Shown here piece after piece: positions 452 through 5,413 of a DNA stretch of 8,834 bases. Source of the DNA: a virus. Lineage: Duplodnaviria > Heunggongvirae > Uroviricota > Caudoviricetes. The DNA lies in the IMG/VR virus record IMGVR_UViG_3300014515_000027; one strand, given 5' to 3'. Every line of letters begins with the position of its first letter. Positions within the stretch are counted from its first letter, which is position 1. The notes beneath the pieces are model-generated. The model was not told where the DNA came from, did not search any database, and saw nothing but the letters and a program-made list of their open reading frames with translations. The position numbers and the translations under genes were made by a program.

Positions 452-640
452 TTATCCAGCCGGTGTTTCGTTATTCAGGTACAGCGATACTTTTTTTAGC
501 GGGAGGCATTCACCAGAAATTTTTTGCTCGTCTCTTGCCTGGAGGCAGGATTCTTTACTTGCATAAATTCCGGTAATCACATTCTGTGATTCACCCGTTA
601 TAAGAAAAACCGTCATCATCAGTGCAAATGCTGAAGTCAT
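452..640 (-). CDS. Small hypothetical protein (62 aa) with a short hydrophobic N-terminal segment
   Basis: ATG at 640 with GGAG about 7 nt upstream on the minus strand; 4-nt ATGA overlap with the preceding gene. N-terminus MTSAFALMMTVFLITG is hydrophobic. No recognisable family. Confidence 0.4.
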   Translation of the reverse strand: MTSAFALMMTVFLITGESQNVITGIYASKESCLQARDEQKISGECLPLKKVSLYLNNETPAG

Positions 641-825
641 TGACGTTCTCCGAAAATACCAAGTTCAAGAAGAGCAATTCGGGAAAGTATGGAATTATCA
701 TTGAGCAGATAAGGCTCATATTTCCTCATATTAATGGCATCTTCAGTAAACTCCCGGTTACTGAGCAGAACACCAATATCAAAACAACCTTCAGACGTAT
801 TAACGTTTGGTAATAACGTTTCCAT
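637..825 (-). CDS. Small hypothetical protein (62 aa), leftward operon
   Basis: ATG at 825 with GAGGA about 7 nt upstream on the minus strand. Its stop overlaps the start of the next gene as ATGA at 637-640, suggesting translational coupling. No recognisable family. Confidence 0.45.
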   Translation of the reverse strand: METLLPNVNTSEGCFDIGVLLSNREFTEDAINMRKYEPYLLNDNSILSRIALLELGIFGERQ

Positions 826-1396
826 TATCGCGTCCTCAACAATGAATTTTGTGATGCAGTGCCTGGTGCCTCCAGGTGACGTTAACCAGTTAACAATTAA
901 CGCCGGGTTAGTTGATGCTCGTTACGCCCGTAAAATACCGCCTTACTGCTTTAACTGTTCCGCGTGCGCATAGCCGCATTCACCGCATCACAAAATTCAC
1001 TTTAAAAAGGGCGGCAGAGCAGTCACGGAGTAAAACTGATACCGCCAAATGTCACCAGAAAATTGATAACAGAGGGCGTTGTAGCGGGGTTGTCACTTAA
1101 GCGTATGGTCAACCTGACAACCCGGTGCATTTTCTGGAGCAATGGAGGAAACCCCAGCCATACTTACCGCCGCGCCATTTCGCGGAGTGCCACAACCGGA
1201 AGCGCACGGTCGAACTAAATTTAACGACACCGTACAGAGAGACCAATTTCGCCGTGCGCTTTCGCGTTATGCCCTGACTTTTCAGGGACATATCCTTTCA
1301 GTAAGCTGTCAGTGCCGGATGCTCACCCGTGTCCGGCGCACGCACTCCACCTGACCCGTGGAGAACTCCTTAATTACCAACCCTCAGGAGGGTGAA

Positions 1397-2464: not shown

Positions 2465-2884
2465 CTATGATGCGTTTTGTGCTTTCTTTTTACGGATTTC
2501 TTCGTAGATCATATTGTAATACTGTTTTTTCTCTTCAAGAGTTTTTAATAATTTATCCGCTTCACTTTCTGGCAGTTCGTCTAAGAGATCTAAAAAAATA
2601 CGTTGTCGTGGCGTTAGAACCCTTGTTTCATAACTGGAGGCTGTGTTCGTTGATGATGAAACGATACCATCCATCCATCCCCGGGGTAACCCAAAGGACT
2701 CTTCGATAATCTCCACCATATCATCAGCGATCCGTTTTTTTCCCTTTTTCCCCTCTGGGTACAACATTCTTGATACATAAGAAGGCTCGCGCCCGATCTT
2801 TCTGGCCACGTTAACCGCTTTACCATCGCATTTCTCATCACGAATTTTGATGAGTTGCTGTCGTCTAAATTCATATTTGTCCAT
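2465..2884 (-). CDS. Prophage repressor, HTH DNA-binding protein without a LexA-like S24 peptidase domain (RacR-like)
   Basis: 139-aa ORF. Its N-terminal segment KAVNVARKIGREPSYVSRML looks like a helix-turn-helix; no peptidase-like C-terminal region. Divergent from the ydaS-like gene and flanked by operator palindromes. No Shine-Dalgarno before the ATG, but a TATTAT -10-like hexamer lies about 7 nt upstream, suggesting a leaderless transcript as for lambda cI. Confidence 0.8.
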   Translation of the reverse strand: MDKYEFRRQQLIKIRDEKCDGKAVNVARKIGREPSYVSRMLYPEGKKGKKRIADDMVEIIEESFGLPRGWMDGIVSSSTNTASSYETRVLTPRQRIFLDLLDELPESEADKLLKTLEEKKQYYNMIYEEIRKKKAQNAS

Positions 2885-2984: not shown

Positions 2985-3266
2985 ATGGAAGAATTAAGAA
3001 TATTTCTCAATTCTCTTTCGTCAGATGAACAGCGTATGTTTGCATGCGAGTGTGGTACCAGCATCGGTTATCTAAGAAAGGCATTGAGTAAAGGTCAAGT
3101 GTTAGGGGCATCGTTATGTGTCCTTATTGAGCGAGCCAGTAATGGTGAAGTTACACGTCAGCAACTAAGGCCTTTTGATTGGATGAATATTTGGCCCGAG
3201 CTGGAAGATACCAAAACGTTAACACAACCACTTTCTAGGAGCTTGATTCATGAAAATCAAGCATGA
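2985..3266 (+). CDS. ydaS: YdaS-like Cro-type HTH protein
   Basis: 93 aa with a strong AAGGAG ribosome-binding site. Motifs CGTSIGYLRKALS ... EVTRQQLRPFDW...WPE match my recollection of the YdaS/Cro-like family. First gene of the rightward operon, divergent from the repressor. Confidence 0.7.
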   Translation: MEELRIFLNSLSSDEQRMFACECGTSIGYLRKALSKGQVLGASLCVLIERASNGEVTRQQLRPFDWMNIWPELEDTKTLTQPLSRSLIHENQA

Positions 3267-3675
3267 ACACATCCGCATGGCGATGAATGCCTGGGCGCGT
3301 CCTGATGGCGAAAAAGTTCCAGCAGCTGGAATAACCCAGGCTTATTTTGAGTTGGGTATGACGTTCCCGGAACTGTATGACGACAGCCATCCGGAAGCCC
3401 TGGCTCGCAATACCCAGAAAATTTTCCGCTGGGTAGAGAAAGCCCCCCCTGATGCTGTTGAAAAAATGCAGGCTCTGTTACCGGCGATCGAAAAGGCGAT
3501 GCCGCCTTTGCTGGTGGCCCGTATGCGCAGCCACAGTTCTGAATATTACCGTGAGATCGTCGAACGGAGGGATCGGCTGGTGAAGGATGTCGATGATTTT
3601 GTTGCGTCAGCGGTTGTTTTGTATGACCAGATGAATCGCGGCGGCCCGGCAGGGAATGCTGTGGTGATGCACTAA
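3250..3675 (+). CDS. ydaT: YdaT-like protein (reported CII-equivalent; toxic when derepressed)
   Basis: 141 aa beginning MKIKHEHI..., as I recall for YdaT. Start overlaps the ydaS-like stop by 17 nt; AGGAG at 3237-3241. Confidence 0.7.
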   Translation: MKIKHEHIRMAMNAWARPDGEKVPAAGITQAYFELGMTFPELYDDSHPEALARNTQKIFRWVEKAPPDAVEKMQALLPAIEKAMPPLLVARMRSHSSEYYREIVERRDRLVKDVDDFVASAVVLYDQMNRGGPAGNAVVMH

Positions 3676-3697
3676 AAGCACGGTGTTCGGGGGTTTT

Positions 3698-4660
3698 ATG
3701 AGCAGCAAGCTTCATGGTCTTGTCTGGGAAGGGTGCGCCTTCACCGGCATGATCTTATCCAGGGTGGCGGTTATGGCCCGTCTTGCAGACTACAGCAATG
3801 ACGAGGGCGTGTCATGGCCTGCCATTGAAACTATCCGGCGTCAGATCGGTGCAAGAAGTGAATCCACAGTGAAATCGGCTATTGCAGAACTGGCGAAAGA
3901 GGGCTGGCTGACGAAGGAAGAGCGTAAGGTCGGTGGGCGTAATGTAAGCAATATCTATCGGCTTAATGTGGAAAAACTCGAAGCAGCTGCGGCGGCGGCG
4001 CGTGAGTCATATAAACCGAAAAGAAAAATTAGCCCGGCAAAAAATGACCCGTTAACAGTTGACCCGTCAAATATTGACCCCTCAACGGTTGACCCGTCAA
4101 ATTTTGATGGATCAACTGTTGATAAAAAACTGCCGATTAGGGGGGCGATGATTGACCCCGATCCGTCAGTATTAAAACCTGATCCGTCAGATAAAAGATC
4201 TTCTTGTCCGGACGCTTCGCAACCGGACCCGCAGACGGCTGAACAGGATTTTTTAACCCGACACCCTGACGCGGTTGTGTTCAGTGCGAAAAAACGCCAG
4301 TGGGGAAGTCAGGAAGATTTGGTGTGCGCACAGTGGATCTGGGGACGAATCGTGAGTCTTTACGAGCAGGCGGCCAGCTATGATGGCGAGATCACTAGAC
4401 CGAAAGAACCCAACTGGACAGCATGGGCCAATGACGTTCGCACAATGCGGATGCTGGATGGCAGAACTCACAGACAAATTTGTGAAATGTTTGGGCGTCT
4501 CCAGCGGGATTCGTTCTGGGTAAAAAACATCATGAGTCCGGCAAAACTCCGGGAAAAATGGGATGAACTGGTTATCCGCCTGGGGCGTTCGCCTGCGCAG
4601 CGTTGCGTGAATCACATTTCTGAACCGGACACTGAAATACCGCCGGGATTCAGGGGGTGA
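3698..4660 (+). CDS. Phage replication initiation protein (N-terminal HTH domain; DnaT/O-like role), carrying internal repeats
   Basis: ATG at 3698 after a GGGGG run (3689-3693); the track start at 3683 is a GTG. N-terminal HTH-like segment VSWPAIETIRRQIGARSESTVKSAIAELAKEGWL. Lies immediately upstream of the DnaC-like gene, as O sits before P in lambda. Contains DP(L/S)(T/N)(V/I) peptide repeats encoded by the 15-bp DNA repeats at 4045-4104. Confidence 0.8.
   Translation: MSSKLHGLVWEGCAFTGMILSRVAVMARLADYSNDEGVSWPAIETIRRQIGARSESTVKSAIAELAKEGWLTKEERKVGGRNVSNIYRLNVEKLEAAAAAARESYKPKRKISPAKNDPLTVDPSNIDPSTVDPSNFDGSTVDKKLPIRGAMIDPDPSVLKPDPSDKRSSCPDASQPDPQTAEQDFLTRHPDAVVFSAKKRQWGSQEDLVCAQWIWGRIVSLYEQAASYDGEITRPKEPNWTAWANDVRTMRMLDGRTHRQICEMFGRLQRDSFWVKNIMSPAKLREKWDELVIRLGRSPAQRCVNHISEPDTEIPPGFRG
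4045..4134. repeat. Tandem 15-bp direct repeats (TGACCCGTCAA-N4 consensus) inside the initiator gene; candidate iterons/origin
   Basis: TGACCC at 4045, 4060, 4075 and 4090 with exact 15-bp period; degenerate TGAT units at 4105 and 4120. Followed by two GATCCGTCAG copies (4151-4160, 4172-4181) and A/T-rich runs. Confidence 0.55.
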
Positions 4661-4666
4661 CGTGTC

Positions 4667-5413
4667 ATGAAAAACATTGCGGCAGTTGGGGTTCTTGAAC
4701 GTATTCGCAGACTTGCACCACAGGGGTCGGTTCCACCGTACCGGACGGTGGAGGAGTGGCGGGAATGGCAACTTGCTGAAGGACGAAAACGCAGCGAGGA
4801 GATTAACCGCCAGAATCGCCAGTTGCGGGTGGAAAAAATCCTGAATCGTTCGGGCATCCAGCCTCTGCACAGCAAATGCTCGTTTGCAAATTATCAGGTG
4901 CAGAACGACGGGCAAAAATACGCGCTGAGCCAGGCCAAATCCATAGCTGACGAACTGATGACCGGGTGCACGAATTTTGTGTTCAGCGGTAAAACCGGCA
5001 CCGGGAAAAATCACCTTGCAGCGGCGATGGGCAACCGGCTGATGGTGAAGGGGCGCAGCGTGATTATCGTCACCGTGTCTGACGTCATGAGCGTGTTGCA
5101 TGACAGCTACGACAACGGCAAATCCGGGGAAAAATTTTTACAGGAGCTTTGCGGGGTTGATTTGCTGGTCCTGGATGAAATAGGCGTTCAGCGGGAGACG
5201 AAAAACGAGCAGGTGGTATTGCACCAGATAATTGATCGCCGGACAGCATCACTGTGCAGTGTCGGGATGTTAACAAACCTGAATCATGCCGCAATGAGTA
5301 CGCTTCTTGGTGAGAGGATTATGGACCGCATGACCATGAACGGTGGTCGATGGGTGACGTTTAACTGGGATAGCTGGCGTCCAAATGTCAGCAATATGAG
5401 GGTTGTGAAGTAA
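4667..5413 (+). CDS. DnaC-like helicase loader (AAA+ ATPase, IstB/DnaC family)
   Basis: 248 aa. Walker A GKTGTGKNHLAAAMG and Walker B LLVLDEIG are visible. GGGGG ribosome-binding site at 4653-4657. Start is 7 nt after the initiator stop. Confidence 0.9.
   Translation: MKNIAAVGVLERIRRLAPQGSVPPYRTVEEWREWQLAEGRKRSEEINRQNRQLRVEKILNRSGIQPLHSKCSFANYQVQNDGQKYALSQAKSIADELMTGCTNFVFSGKTGTGKNHLAAAMGNRLMVKGRSVIIVTVSDVMSVLHDSYDNGKSGEKFLQELCGVDLLVLDEIGVQRETKNEQVVLHQIIDRRTASLCSVGMLTNLNHAAMSTLLGERIMDRMTMNGGRWVTFNWDSWRPNVSNMRVVK

What the first reader, a model, noticed from the sequence alone, without database searches (positions are those of the whole stretch)
4040..4200. 15-bp periodic TGACCCGTCAA repeats inside the initiator gene: candidate origin iterons that also encode a peptide repeat
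Four near-identical units sit at exact 15-bp spacing (TGACCC at 4045, 4060, 4075, 4090), with two degenerate units after them, then two GATCCGTCAG copies and A/T-rich stretches. In lambda the origin iterons lie inside the O gene and are followed by an AT-rich unwinding region, so an intragenic origin is the natural reading. The same DNA encodes the repeat DPLTV-DPSNI-DPSTV-DPSNF in the initiator. The 15-bp period is shorter than classical iterons, so the peptide repeat could be the primary feature instead.
Basis: partly seen in the sequence, partly recalled or inferred. Interest (0 to 1): 0.55.

Follow-up and report, generated by a model that had tools for sequence, protein, structure and literature searches.

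The report
Prophage replication origin inside initiator gene
The 15-bp repeats inside this E. coli prophage's replication-initiator gene are conserved as DNA rather than as protein, so they are very probably the initiator's binding sites at a lambda-style replication origin, which is a familiar arrangement seen here in a family whose origin has not been described.

Summary
Five 12-bp units of the form TTGAC-NN-GTCAA sit at exact 15-bp spacing (4044-4115). Two GATCCGTCAG copies follow at 4160 and 4181. All of this lies in the middle of a 320-aa initiator gene (3698-4660).

- Across 58 non-redundant loci, the folded N-terminal domain is 73% identical in protein but uses the same codon for the same residue only 40% of the time.
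- The repeat and linker region is only 53% identical in protein but 83% identical in codon choice. For example, the repeat Ser is TCA in 89% of units, against 11% in the N-domain.
- In one relative the same conserved 19-mer is read in a different frame.

The encoded peptide is predicted to be disordered. The repeat sequence differs between N-terminal domain types. The C-terminal domain is homologous to that of lambda O, and the repeats occupy the same position as lambda's iterons. A phage with the same C-terminal domain but an unrelated N-terminal domain carries different repeats at that spot.

Verdict: an uncharacterised but conceptually ordinary lambda-type intragenic origin. No binding or replication experiment exists. 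The 15-bp packing and a family-wide GATC-bearing core are the unusual details.

The parts
3698..4660 (+). Replication initiator gene (320 aa). It has an N-terminal winged-helix domain (aa 1-105), a disordered linker (aa ~109-180) and a lambda-O-like C-terminal domain (aa 182-300).
   Evidence: Translation. Pfam HTH_36 on aa 25-71. PHROG 391 'replication initiation O-like', E=2e-115. AF2 gives pLDDT 72-88 for aa 1-105 and <50 for aa 109-180. BLASTP to lambda O residues 171-277 gives 39% identity, E=5e-26.
3995..4228 (.). The stretch of the gene whose synonymous sites are constrained across the family. This marks the extent of the DNA-level element, i.e. the candidate origin.
   Evidence: In the codon-aligned set of 58 non-redundant loci, major-codon frequency is 0.8-1.0 for window residues ~100-177, against 0.3-0.6 in the N-domain. 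Codon identity for the same amino acid is 0.83 against 0.40; Mann-Whitney p=6e-8.
4003..4043 (.). A-rich, low-stability tract just upstream of the array (CATATAAACCGAAAAGAAAAATTAGCCCGGCAAAAA).
   Evidence: The least stable 30-mer of the gene starts at 4003, with dG -33.2 against a window mean of -40.9 +/- 3.5. AT skew is +0.5.
4044..4055 (.). Iteron 1, degenerate (ATGACCCGTTAA).
4059..4070 (.). Iteron 2 (TTGACCCGTCAA), a dyad TTGAC/GTCAA.
4074..4085 (.). Iteron 3 (TTGACCCCTCAA).
4089..4100 (.). Iteron 4 (TTGACCCGTCAA).
4104..4115 (.). Iteron 5 (TTGATGGATCAA). It is still a dyad (TTGAT/ATCAA), its centre is inverted (GG), and it contains a GATC.
4119..4129 (.). Terminal half-site TTGAT followed by an A6 tract. 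The second least stable 30-mer of the gene starts at 4099.
4150..4205 (.). Conserved core. It contains a TTGAC half-site (4152-4156), GATCCGTCAG (4160-4169), the AT-rich spacer TATTAAAACC, the iteron-like CTGATCCGTCAGA (4179-4191) and ATAAAAGATCTTC. There are three GATC sites (4160, 4181, 4197). This is the likely unwinding region.
   Evidence: The equivalent ~60-bp core GAATCTGGCGGGGATCCGTCAGTAAATTCAAAACAWGATCCATCAGATAAAAAACC is kept almost base for base in most of the 80 loci, from Providencia, Yersinia, Erwinia, Enterobacter and other Enterobacterales. The codons GAT CCG TCA GTA have frequencies 1.00/0.93/1.00/0.98. The third least stable 30-mer starts at 4170. The mosaic junction with other phages falls at ~4160-4205.
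4667..5413 (+). DnaC/IstB-like helicase-loader ATPase gene. Its product is the presumed partner recruited by the initiator's C-terminal domain.
   Evidence: Pfam IstB_IS21, E=7e-19. PHROG 50 'DnaC-like helicase loader', E=8e-82.

Best explanation
The array is the iteron part of the prophage's replication origin, which lies inside the initiator gene as in lambda.

Shown:
- The DNA sequence of 3995-4228 is under strong purifying selection independent of the protein it encodes.
- It consists of short dyad-symmetric sites (core TGA-N4-TCA; here TTGAC-NN-GTCAA) packed every 15 bp.
- A conserved, GATC-bearing, relatively AT-rich core follows the array.
- It encodes a predicted disordered linker between a winged-helix DNA-binding domain and a lambda-O-like C-terminal domain.

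Inferred:
- Dimers of the N-terminal winged-helix domain bind the dyads.
- Several bound dimers build an O-some-like complex that stresses the flanking low-stability DNA, most likely 4168-4200 and possibly 4003-4043.
- The C-terminal domain brings in the DnaC-like loader encoded next door, together with host DnaB.
- The DPSxV peptide repeat is a by-product of coding through the binding sites, tolerated because the linker needs no defined structure.
For: (1) Synonymous sites are frozen only here. In 58 non-redundant loci the N-domain has aa identity 0.73 but same-residue codon identity 0.40. The linker has aa identity 0.53 but codon identity 0.83. Median major-codon frequency is 0.97 against 0.41, p=6e-8.

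(2) Unit Ser is TCA in 396 of 445 units, against 11% in the N-domain. First-position Ser is TCT in 85% against 9%. Lys is AAA in 92% against 58%. The middle residue of each unit varies freely (P, A, T, G, R, S, V, H).

(3) In L083 two 1-nt indels put the conserved TTTCACCCGTCAGAATCTG in another frame. It reads VFTRQNLT instead of GFHPSESG, yet the DNA is kept.

(4) Residues 109-180 have pLDDT <50 and no secondary structure. The N-domain is a winged helix.

(5) Repeat type follows N-domain type. The window cluster has nTTGACccnTCAAnn. The main cluster has TcTGAcnCnTCAaAA. The half-site inside the core changes in step: GTTGAC against TCTGGC.

(6) The C-domain is homologous to lambda O's (E=5e-26). 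Lambda's annotated iterons lie at codons 117-145, just upstream of that domain, as here. Providencia and Proteus members carry a lambda-like TTCGTCnnAGAATTCTGnCGAATCC right after the core.

(7) There is a natural swap. mEp460 has the same C-domain (86% nt identity) but an unrelated N-domain and different repeats in the same place.

(8) Unit number varies in steps of 15 bp, from 3 to 10 per locus. E. coli alleles lacking one unit exist. Lambda-type origins likewise have 4 or 6 iterons (PMC7466680).

(9) The motif occurs nowhere else in the window.
Against: No binding, unwinding or replication data exist for this family.

The 15-bp centre-to-centre spacing (about 1.4 helical turns) is tighter than lambda's 20-24 bp. 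It would put neighbouring dimers on nearly opposite faces, so the binding geometry is unclear.

The AT-rich element is weak, only ~2 SD below mean stability and far from the least stable DNA in the window.

The symmetric positions 6 and 9 of the unit show no excess of complementary pairs beyond chance (42% observed, 39% expected). Dyad symmetry is therefore secure only for the TGA/TCA core and the flanking T/A.

Many carriers are probably defective prophages: the neighbourhood has dicB, DicF and hokD. This particular copy may never fire.
Confidence: 0.78

Rival explanations
1. The DNA element is real but is not the origin. It might be an array of operator-like sites through which the initiator, or another phage or host protein, regulates transcription through its own gene by roadblock or autoregulation. 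It might instead handcuff copies for copy control.
For: DNA-level constraint and dyad symmetry show only that something reads the duplex. Winged-helix proteins of this fold are mostly transcription regulators. Iterons in plasmids serve both initiation and negative control (established knowledge; PMC4980987).
Against: The position matches lambda's mapped ori relative to the shared C-domain. The conserved low-stability GATC core is adjacent. There is no promoter-like site in or near the array. Repeats are swapped together with the initiator's N-domain in mEp460.
Confidence: 0.1
2. The functional form is a single strand. The self-complementary array folds into a long hairpin in the mRNA, affecting translation or stability. 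Or it folds in unwound DNA as a cruciform or a priming/assembly signal, with no sequence-specific duplex recognition.
For: Region 4054-4120 folds into a ~30-bp imperfect hairpin, with z=-4.3 as RNA and -4.9 as DNA. Arrays across the family are similarly self-complementary, with median z -4.9 and 85% below -3.
Against: Self-complementarity is an automatic consequence of tandem dyads. What is conserved is a specific sequence (TGA...TCA), not pairing. The main cluster mostly has C opposite A at unit positions 2/13 (235 CA against 45 CG), which would break the stem. Positions 6/9 show no excess complementarity. There is no Rfam match. A hairpin could still act in addition to protein binding.
Confidence: 0.05
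3. The peptide repeat (DPSxV)n is the selected feature, acting as a flexible acidic spacer or interaction motif, and the DNA periodicity only reflects recent duplication.
For: The repeat is in frame. It has a recognisable D-x-S pattern in all homologues. Unit number changes by slippage.
Against: Codon choice is fixed across genera while the amino acids vary. The same DNA is read in another frame in L083. The region is predicted to be disordered. Protein identity is lower here than in the N-domain, although DNA constraint is higher.
Confidence: 0.03
4. The low synonymous divergence reflects recent horizontal spread of this segment, as a mosaic 'joint' between modules, rather than selection on the DNA.
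For: Mosaic junctions fall at the 3' edge of the region. Lambdoid phages recombine at conserved joints (established knowledge).
Against: A recent sweep would also make the protein more similar, but aa identity is lowest here (0.53, and 0.33 in distant pairs). Variation is concentrated at particular unit positions (7-9) and in unit number, while other positions are ~90-100% fixed in hosts from Providencia to Escherichia.
Confidence: 0.04

Closest known systems
ori-lambda inside gene O of phage lambda and lambda-like Stx phages (iterons, then an AT-rich region, bound by the O protein)
   Same: The origin-like element lies inside the initiator ORF, between the DNA-binding N-domain and the C-domain. 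The repeated sites have dyad symmetry. A low-stability A-rich segment is adjacent. The region encodes a flexible linker. Repeat number is variable (4 against 6 iterons in lambda and Stx phages, PMC7466680; 3-10 here). The C-terminal domain is homologous (39% identity, E=5e-26). The module follows a cro/cII-like pair and precedes the helicase-loader gene.
   Different: The N-terminal domain belongs to a different Pfam family (HTH_36, PF13730, against Phage_rep_O, PF04492). The sites are 12-14 bp at 15-bp spacing, not 18 bp at 20-24 bp. The sequence is unrelated (TTGAC-NN-GTCAA against ATCCCTCAAAACGAGGGA). The partner is a DnaC/IstB-type ATPase, not lambda P. The AT-rich part is shorter and carries conserved GATC sites.
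Non-lambdoid 'Eru' replication regions of Stx phages with HTH_36 proteins (Eru5, 6, 8, 11, 13; PMC8951638)
   Same: These have an HTH_36 initiator-like protein. In Eru8 and Eru11 there is a YdaT-like gene next to it. The module sits in the same place relative to the repressor. Relatives of the window protein occur in phiP27, SfII, SfIV, phiNP and YeP1.
   Different: That work classifies gene content only. It states that nothing is known about how these phages replicate, and it describes no origin or iterons.
Origins inside initiator genes of Gram-positive phages, such as SPP1 oriL in gene 38 and lactococcal TP901-1 or Tuc2009 repeats inside rep (from general knowledge, not checked here)
   Same: Short direct repeats within the initiator ORF are bound by the initiator's N-terminal domain. 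The initiator is of the DnaD/replisome-organiser type. There is a weak DnaD_N hit here and PHROG 'DnaD-like helicase loader' hits to the C-domain.
   Different: The hosts, sequences and partner proteins differ. No sequence-level relationship was tested.
Plasmid iteron origins (pPS10, R6K, RK2, P1 oriR)
   Same: They have tandem initiator-binding repeats beside an AT-rich unwinding element. Their Rep proteins are winged-helix proteins. GATC sites are important in P1 oriR and oriC (general knowledge).
   Different: Plasmid iterons are 17-22 bp, spaced about two turns apart, usually intergenic, and bound by monomers. Here the sites are shorter, dyad-symmetric, at 15-bp spacing and coding. DnaA boxes are not enriched.

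Membership tests
Lambda-type intragenic phage origin (iterons plus an unwinding element inside the initiator gene) | Tandem repeated sites located within the initiator ORF, between the DNA-binding domain and the C-terminal domain | tested here: met
   Five units at 4044-4115 and a core at 4150-4205 lie between the wHTH domain (aa 1-105) and the C-domain (aa 182-300). This is the same relative place as lambda's annotated iterons.
Lambda-type intragenic phage origin (iterons plus an unwinding element inside the initiator gene) | The repeats are selected as DNA, not as protein | tested here: met
   Same-residue codon identity is 0.83 against 0.40. Ser is TCA in 89% against 11%. There is a frame-shifted reading of the conserved DNA in L083.
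Lambda-type intragenic phage origin (iterons plus an unwinding element inside the initiator gene) | Each site has internal dyad symmetry, suitable for a dimer | tested here: met
   TTGAC-NN-GTCAA in the window. The family core is TGA-N4-TCA with flanking T/A. Outer and inner positions are less symmetric.
Lambda-type intragenic phage origin (iterons plus an unwinding element inside the initiator gene) | Site sequence co-varies with the initiator's DNA-binding domain | tested here: met
   TTGAC in the window's N-domain cluster, against CTGAC in the main cluster. The half-site in the core changes in step. An unrelated N-domain (mEp460) has unrelated repeats. Only a few independent groups are available.
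Lambda-type intragenic phage origin (iterons plus an unwinding element inside the initiator gene) | An adjacent AT-rich, easily unwound segment | tested here: inconclusive
   The three least stable 30-mers of the gene flank or lie in the element (4003, 4099, 4170). They are only ~2 SD below the mean and shorter than lambda's 39-bp tract.
Lambda-type intragenic phage origin (iterons plus an unwinding element inside the initiator gene) | The initiator binds the repeats, and the fragment supports initiator-dependent replication | not testable with these tools
   This needs EMSA or footprinting and an origin-cloning assay. No published data were found.
Lambda O protein family (Pfam PF04492, Phage_rep_O N-terminal domain) | The N-terminal domain matches PF04492 | tested here: not met
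   The window protein matches HTH_36 (PF13730) and weakly DnaD_N, not PF04492. Lambda O matches PF04492 at 5.7e-36. BLASTP finds no N-terminal similarity.
Lambda O protein family (Pfam PF04492, Phage_rep_O N-terminal domain) | The C-terminal (P-interaction) domain is homologous to lambda O's | tested here: met
   Residues 182-300 against lambda O 171-277: 39% identity, E=5e-26.
Plasmid-type iterons | Direct repeats of 17-22 bp spaced about 22 bp apart, intergenic | tested here: not met
   The units are 12-14 bp with a 15-bp period, and they are coding.
Protein tandem repeat under protein-level selection | The amino-acid repeat is conserved while synonymous sites drift | tested here: not met
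   The reverse pattern is seen. The region is predicted to be disordered.
oriC/P1-type origin elements (DnaA boxes, GATC-rich 13-mers) | Clustered DnaA boxes | tested here: not met
   There are 30 matches with up to 2 mismatches against 25 expected. Only single 1-mismatch boxes occur, at 3967 and 4117.
oriC/P1-type origin elements (DnaA boxes, GATC-rich 13-mers) | Clustered, conserved GATC (Dam) sites | tested here: inconclusive
   Four of the window's 24 GATC sites lie in 4110-4200. Two are nearly invariant across the family (GAT 1.00 followed by CC). Any role in methylation control is untested.

The most novel reading that the evidence does not exclude
This may be a distinct origin architecture shared by a very large family of Enterobacterales prophages. 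Winged-helix (HTH_36) initiators would read half-sites that alternate in orientation every 7-8 bp (dyads every 15 bp, about 1.4 turns), so that the bound proteins spiral around the DNA or extrude the self-complementary array as a hairpin or cruciform. A nearly invariant ~60-bp GATC-bearing core would then act as a universal, possibly Dam/SeqA-controlled, unwinding and loading site. That core is compatible with at least four different helicase-recruitment modules: DnaC-like, IstB plus DnaB, Toprim-helicase and PF09524-type C-domains.
Probability: 0.3. Interest if true: 0.55.

Novelty: new member of a known kind. Interest (0 to 1): 0.4.

Why it matters
This initiator allele is present at 99% identity or more in about a quarter of complete E. 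coli genomes: 1374 of the 5426 genomes in the collection. Relatives occur in Shigella serotype-converting phages, in Stx phage phiP27 and in the 'Eru' Stx phages, whose replication is said to be unknown.

A sequence-level definition of the origin has several uses:
- It gives a concrete target for testing how these non-lambda-type prophages replicate.
- It helps predict which prophages are still replication-competent.
- It helps explain the modular swapping of the origin-specificity and helicase-recruitment halves of the initiator.

It is also a clean natural example of dual coding. A protein-binding DNA array dictates the sequence of a disordered protein linker, and the synonymous-site test used here can be reused to find such origins elsewhere.

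Tried and rejected
- Rfam scan of the window: nothing in the gene (only DicF and sok elsewhere).
- Promoter and terminator scan of 3600-4700: zero sites, so the TTGAC units are not -35 boxes of internal promoters.
- DnaA boxes: not enriched.
- Test for compensatory change at symmetric unit positions 6/9: no excess over chance (42% against 39%), apart from a small GAA...CGT subgroup. I did not use this as evidence.
- Resemblance of GTATTAAAA (4168-4176) to the AT cluster at the left end of oriC: a shared 9-mer only, not conserved in the family, so treated as chance.
- Rac prophage YdaU as a possible characterised homologue (oriJ): it is a DUF1376 protein, a different family.
- Foldseek of the AF2 model against the PDB: only generic MarR/PadR-type winged helices (E >= 5e-3), no initiator structure.
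- Profile comparison of the mosaic alignment A1 with lambda O was muddied by the mixed C-domains (probability 8%). The pairwise BLASTP was clear.
- GC-skew profile over 1 kb: uninformative at this scale.
- Six literature searches found no description of an origin for HTH_36 initiators.
Full report
**Context**

The window is the early-right region of a lambdoid (Rac/Qin-like) E. coli prophage. It contains, in order:
- a repressor gene (2465-2884, minus strand);
- a YdaS/cro-like gene (2985-3266);
- a YdaT/cII-like gene (3250-3675);
- a 320-aa 'helix-turn-helix domain-containing protein' (3698-4660);
- a DnaC/IstB-like ATPase (4667-5413);
- then DUF1627, DUF977, QueH and hokD.

The 963-bp gene is 100% identical in many E. 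coli chromosomes. Matches at 99% identity or more to its 5' half occur in 1374 of 5426 complete genomes. PHROGs calls the protein 'replication initiation O-like' (phrog_391, E=2e-115) and its neighbour a 'DnaC-like helicase loader'.

**Observation**

- TGACCC begins at 4045, 4060, 4075 and 4090.
- TRF finds period 15 with 5 copies.
- The 12-mer TTGACCCGTCAA, with up to 2 mismatches, occurs at 4044, 4059, 4074, 4089 and 4104 and nowhere else in 8.8 kb. That is 7 strand-matches against 0.81 expected, and 0 of 200 shuffles reach this.
- GATCCGTCAG is at 4160 and 4181.
- The frame encodes NDPLTVDPSNIDPSTVDPSNFDGSTVDKK.

The fifth unit, TTGATGGATCAA, is also a dyad. As a result the array as a whole is self-complementary.

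**DNA or peptide?**

I collected homologues of the N-terminal 170 residues (117 proteins). I then fetched DNA for 80 loci from species-representative genomes, mostly Enterobacterales plus Gilliamella, and three more loci.

All of them have a conserved N-terminal domain, then a 5-residue periodic stretch (x-D/E-x-S-x), then one of at least four unrelated C-terminal domains.

At the DNA level the units are TCTGAC-N-C-R-TCAAAA in most loci and (A/G)TTGAC-CC-N-TCAA in the window's subgroup.

Codon usage shows that the DNA is what is kept:
- Ser at unit position 4 is TCA in 396 of 445 units (89%). Ser at position 1 is TCT in 85%. In the N-domains of the same genes these codons account for 11% and 9% of Ser.
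- Lys is AAA in 92% against 58%.
- The middle residue of the unit is free (P, A, T, G, R, S, V, H).

I then made a codon alignment of 58 loci that are less than 90% identical in nucleotide sequence.
- Residues conserved in the N-domain use their commonest codon only 30-60% of the time, so synonymous sites there are saturated.
- From window residue ~100 to ~177 (nt 3995-4228) the commonest codon reaches 80-100%. For example GAT CCG TCA GTA score 1.00/0.93/1.00/0.98.
- Over all pairs, the N-domain has aa identity 0.73 and same-residue codon identity 0.40. The linker has aa identity 0.53 and codon identity 0.83. For pairs below 60% N-domain identity the figures are 0.56/0.36 against 0.33/0.79. 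Mann-Whitney p=6e-8.

Finally, in an Enterobacter relative (L083) two single-base indels put the conserved 19-mer TTTCACCCGTCAGAATCTG into another frame. It reads V-F-T-R-Q-N-L-T instead of G-F-H-P-S-E-S-G, and the DNA is retained.

A recent recombinational sweep cannot explain the pattern, because protein identity is lowest where DNA constraint is highest and variation is confined to particular unit positions.

**The protein**

AlphaFold2 on the 23-sequence alignment gives three regions:
- a winged-helix N-domain (aa 1-105, pLDDT 72-88);
- no structure for aa 109-180 (pLDDT below 50);
- a helical C-domain.

The N-domain resembles generic MarR/PadR-type winged helices, which typically bind dyads as dimers (the binding mode is inferred).

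**Link to lambda**

The N-domain is HTH_36 (PF13730), not lambda's Phage_rep_O (PF04492). But residues 182-300 are homologous to lambda O residues 171-277, the C-terminal domain (39% identity, E=5e-26).

Lambda's annotated iterons lie at codons 117-145, directly upstream of that domain. The window's units lie at codons 116-140, in the same position.

Providencia, Proteus and Symbiopectobacterium members of the family carry, right after their conserved core, a sequence similar to the stretch just right of lambda's AT-rich tract (TTCGTCnnAGAATTCTGnCGAATCC, 78-81% identity over 36-41 bp).

For lambda it is established that:
- ori lies in the middle of O;
- O binds each iteron as a dimer through its N-terminal part;
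- the domains are joined by a flexible linker;
- Stx-phage relatives have 6 iterons instead of 4;
- small in-frame deletions in the AT-rich part still give a functional O protein (PMC7466680, PMC6022878).

**Modularity**

Nucleotide similarity to other phages begins only at window ~4160-4193.
- Phage mEp460 has the same C-domain (86% nt identity) joined to an unrelated N-domain. In the same linker position it carries different repeats: CATYGGKTYAAAAYG three times and ACAGAGAATACA 2.8 times.
- Within the HTH_36 family the repeat half-site differs between N-domain clusters (TTGAC against CTGAC). The half-site embedded in the conserved core changes in step: GTTGACCCCGATCC against TCTGGCGGGGATCC.
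- The downstream partners differ between loci: DnaC-like here, IstB plus DnaB in L083, Toprim-AAA_25 in L085.

So the N-domain plus repeats behave as one specificity module. The C-domain plus loader behave as another.

**Anatomy of the candidate origin in the window**

- An A-rich, low-stability tract (4003-4043).
- Five dyads at 15-bp spacing (4044-4115).
- A terminal half-site plus an A6 tract (4119-4129).
- A degenerate unit (~4134-4147).
- A core (4150-4205) with a TTGAC half-site, two GATCCGTCAG elements 21 bp apart separated by TATTAAAACC, and ATAAAAGATCTTC.

Four of the window's 24 GATC sites lie in 4110-4200. The three least stable 30-mers of the gene start at 4003, 4099 and 4170. The family-wide counterpart of the core is conserved almost base for base across genera.

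**Mechanism (inferred)**

N-domain dimers occupy the dyads. The resulting multi-protein complex distorts the DNA and opens the adjacent low-stability core. The lambda-O-like C-domain recruits the DnaC-like loader with host DnaB. The DPSxV repeat is simply what the binding sites spell in this frame.

**Open points**

- The 15-bp spacing means half-sites alternate every 7-8 bp and neighbouring dyads face nearly opposite sides of the helix. This differs from lambda's 20-24 bp.
- The array can fold into a long hairpin (z about -4.3 to -4.9, and similar across the family). This is expected from tandem dyads but could have a role of its own.
- The AT-rich element is modest.
- No experimental data exist.

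**Literature**

I found no description of an origin for this family. One paper on Stx-phage replication regions lists HTH_36 proteins in several 'Eru' types and states that nothing is known about their replication (PMC8951638).

**Verdict**

It is a new, uncharacterised member of a well-known kind, with some unusual architectural details.

Noticed in passing
L083:3400-3470 (Enterobacter relative) compared with L006 and L024: Two compensating 1-nt indels shift the reading frame across the conserved TTTCACCCGTCAGAATCTG segment. The same DNA therefore encodes VFTRQNLT instead of GFHPSESG. This is a natural demonstration that the linker peptide is dispensable.
   Followed up: yes
window 4160-4205 and the equivalent stretch in L006-L081: A ~60-bp core (GGGGATCCGTCAGTAAATTCAAAACAWGATCCATCAGATAAAAAACC) is conserved nearly base for base across genera and across N-domain subtypes. 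It has two almost invariant GATC (Dam) sites 21-24 bp apart. What reads it (the initiator, SeqA/Dam or the loader) is unknown.
   Followed up: partly
window 4667-4684, and 4600-4658: The DnaC-like protein starts with MKNIAA, the same six residues as lambda P. The last ~60 bp of the initiator gene are 95% identical to the 3' ends of O-like genes of Stx phages that are otherwise dissimilar (H26-H30). This looks like a conserved mosaic joint at the gene boundary.
   Followed up: no
L088:1300-1500 (phage mEp460): The initiator has the same C-domain but an unrelated N-domain with no Pfam hit. Its linker has its own repeats (CATYGGKTYAAAAYG three times; ACAGAGAATACA 2.8 times). This is probably that family's origin.
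   Followed up: partly
L009, L011, L014, L046, L010 (gene positions ~453-580): Providencia, Proteus and Symbiopectobacterium relatives carry TTCGTCnnAGAATTCTGnCGAATCC right after their core. It is similar to the stretch just right of lambda's AT-rich tract, which includes lambda's EcoRI site.
   Followed up: partly
window 1009-1060 (-) and 637-825 (-): There is a DicF sRNA (Rfam RF00039, 77 bits) and a dicB cell-division inhibitor gene, as in the Qin prophage of K-12.
   Followed up: no
window 7554-7729 (+) and ~7724-7879 (+): A hok/sok-type toxin-antitoxin locus: sok RNA (RF01794, 120 bits) overlapping the start of hokD.
   Followed up: no
window 6800-7486 (+): A prophage-borne QueH (epoxyqueuosine reductase) homologue, Pfam E=1e-65. 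This is an unusual cargo gene next to the replication module.
   Followed up: no
window 4168-4176: GTATTAAAA is identical to a 9-mer in the AT cluster at the left end of E. coli oriC (GGGTATTAAAAAGAAGATCT), and both are flanked by GATC sites. It is not conserved in the family, so it is probably chance.
   Followed up: yes
window 3967-3975 (-) and 4117-4125 (-): Two single DnaA-box-like 9-mers (TTTTCCACA and TTATCAACA, one mismatch each) lie near the array: the first ~70 bp upstream of it, the second just past its last full unit. The window shows no overall enrichment, and the first lies in codons that are not conserved at synonymous sites.
   Followed up: partly
E. coli alleles H92-H94 and P0003/P0020: Close E. 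coli variants of the gene are exactly 15 bp (one unit, LTVDP) shorter. Other relatives have 3 to 10 units, and one (P0084/L085) has 33-bp repeats (NNHFDPSDSGK three times).
   Followed up: partly
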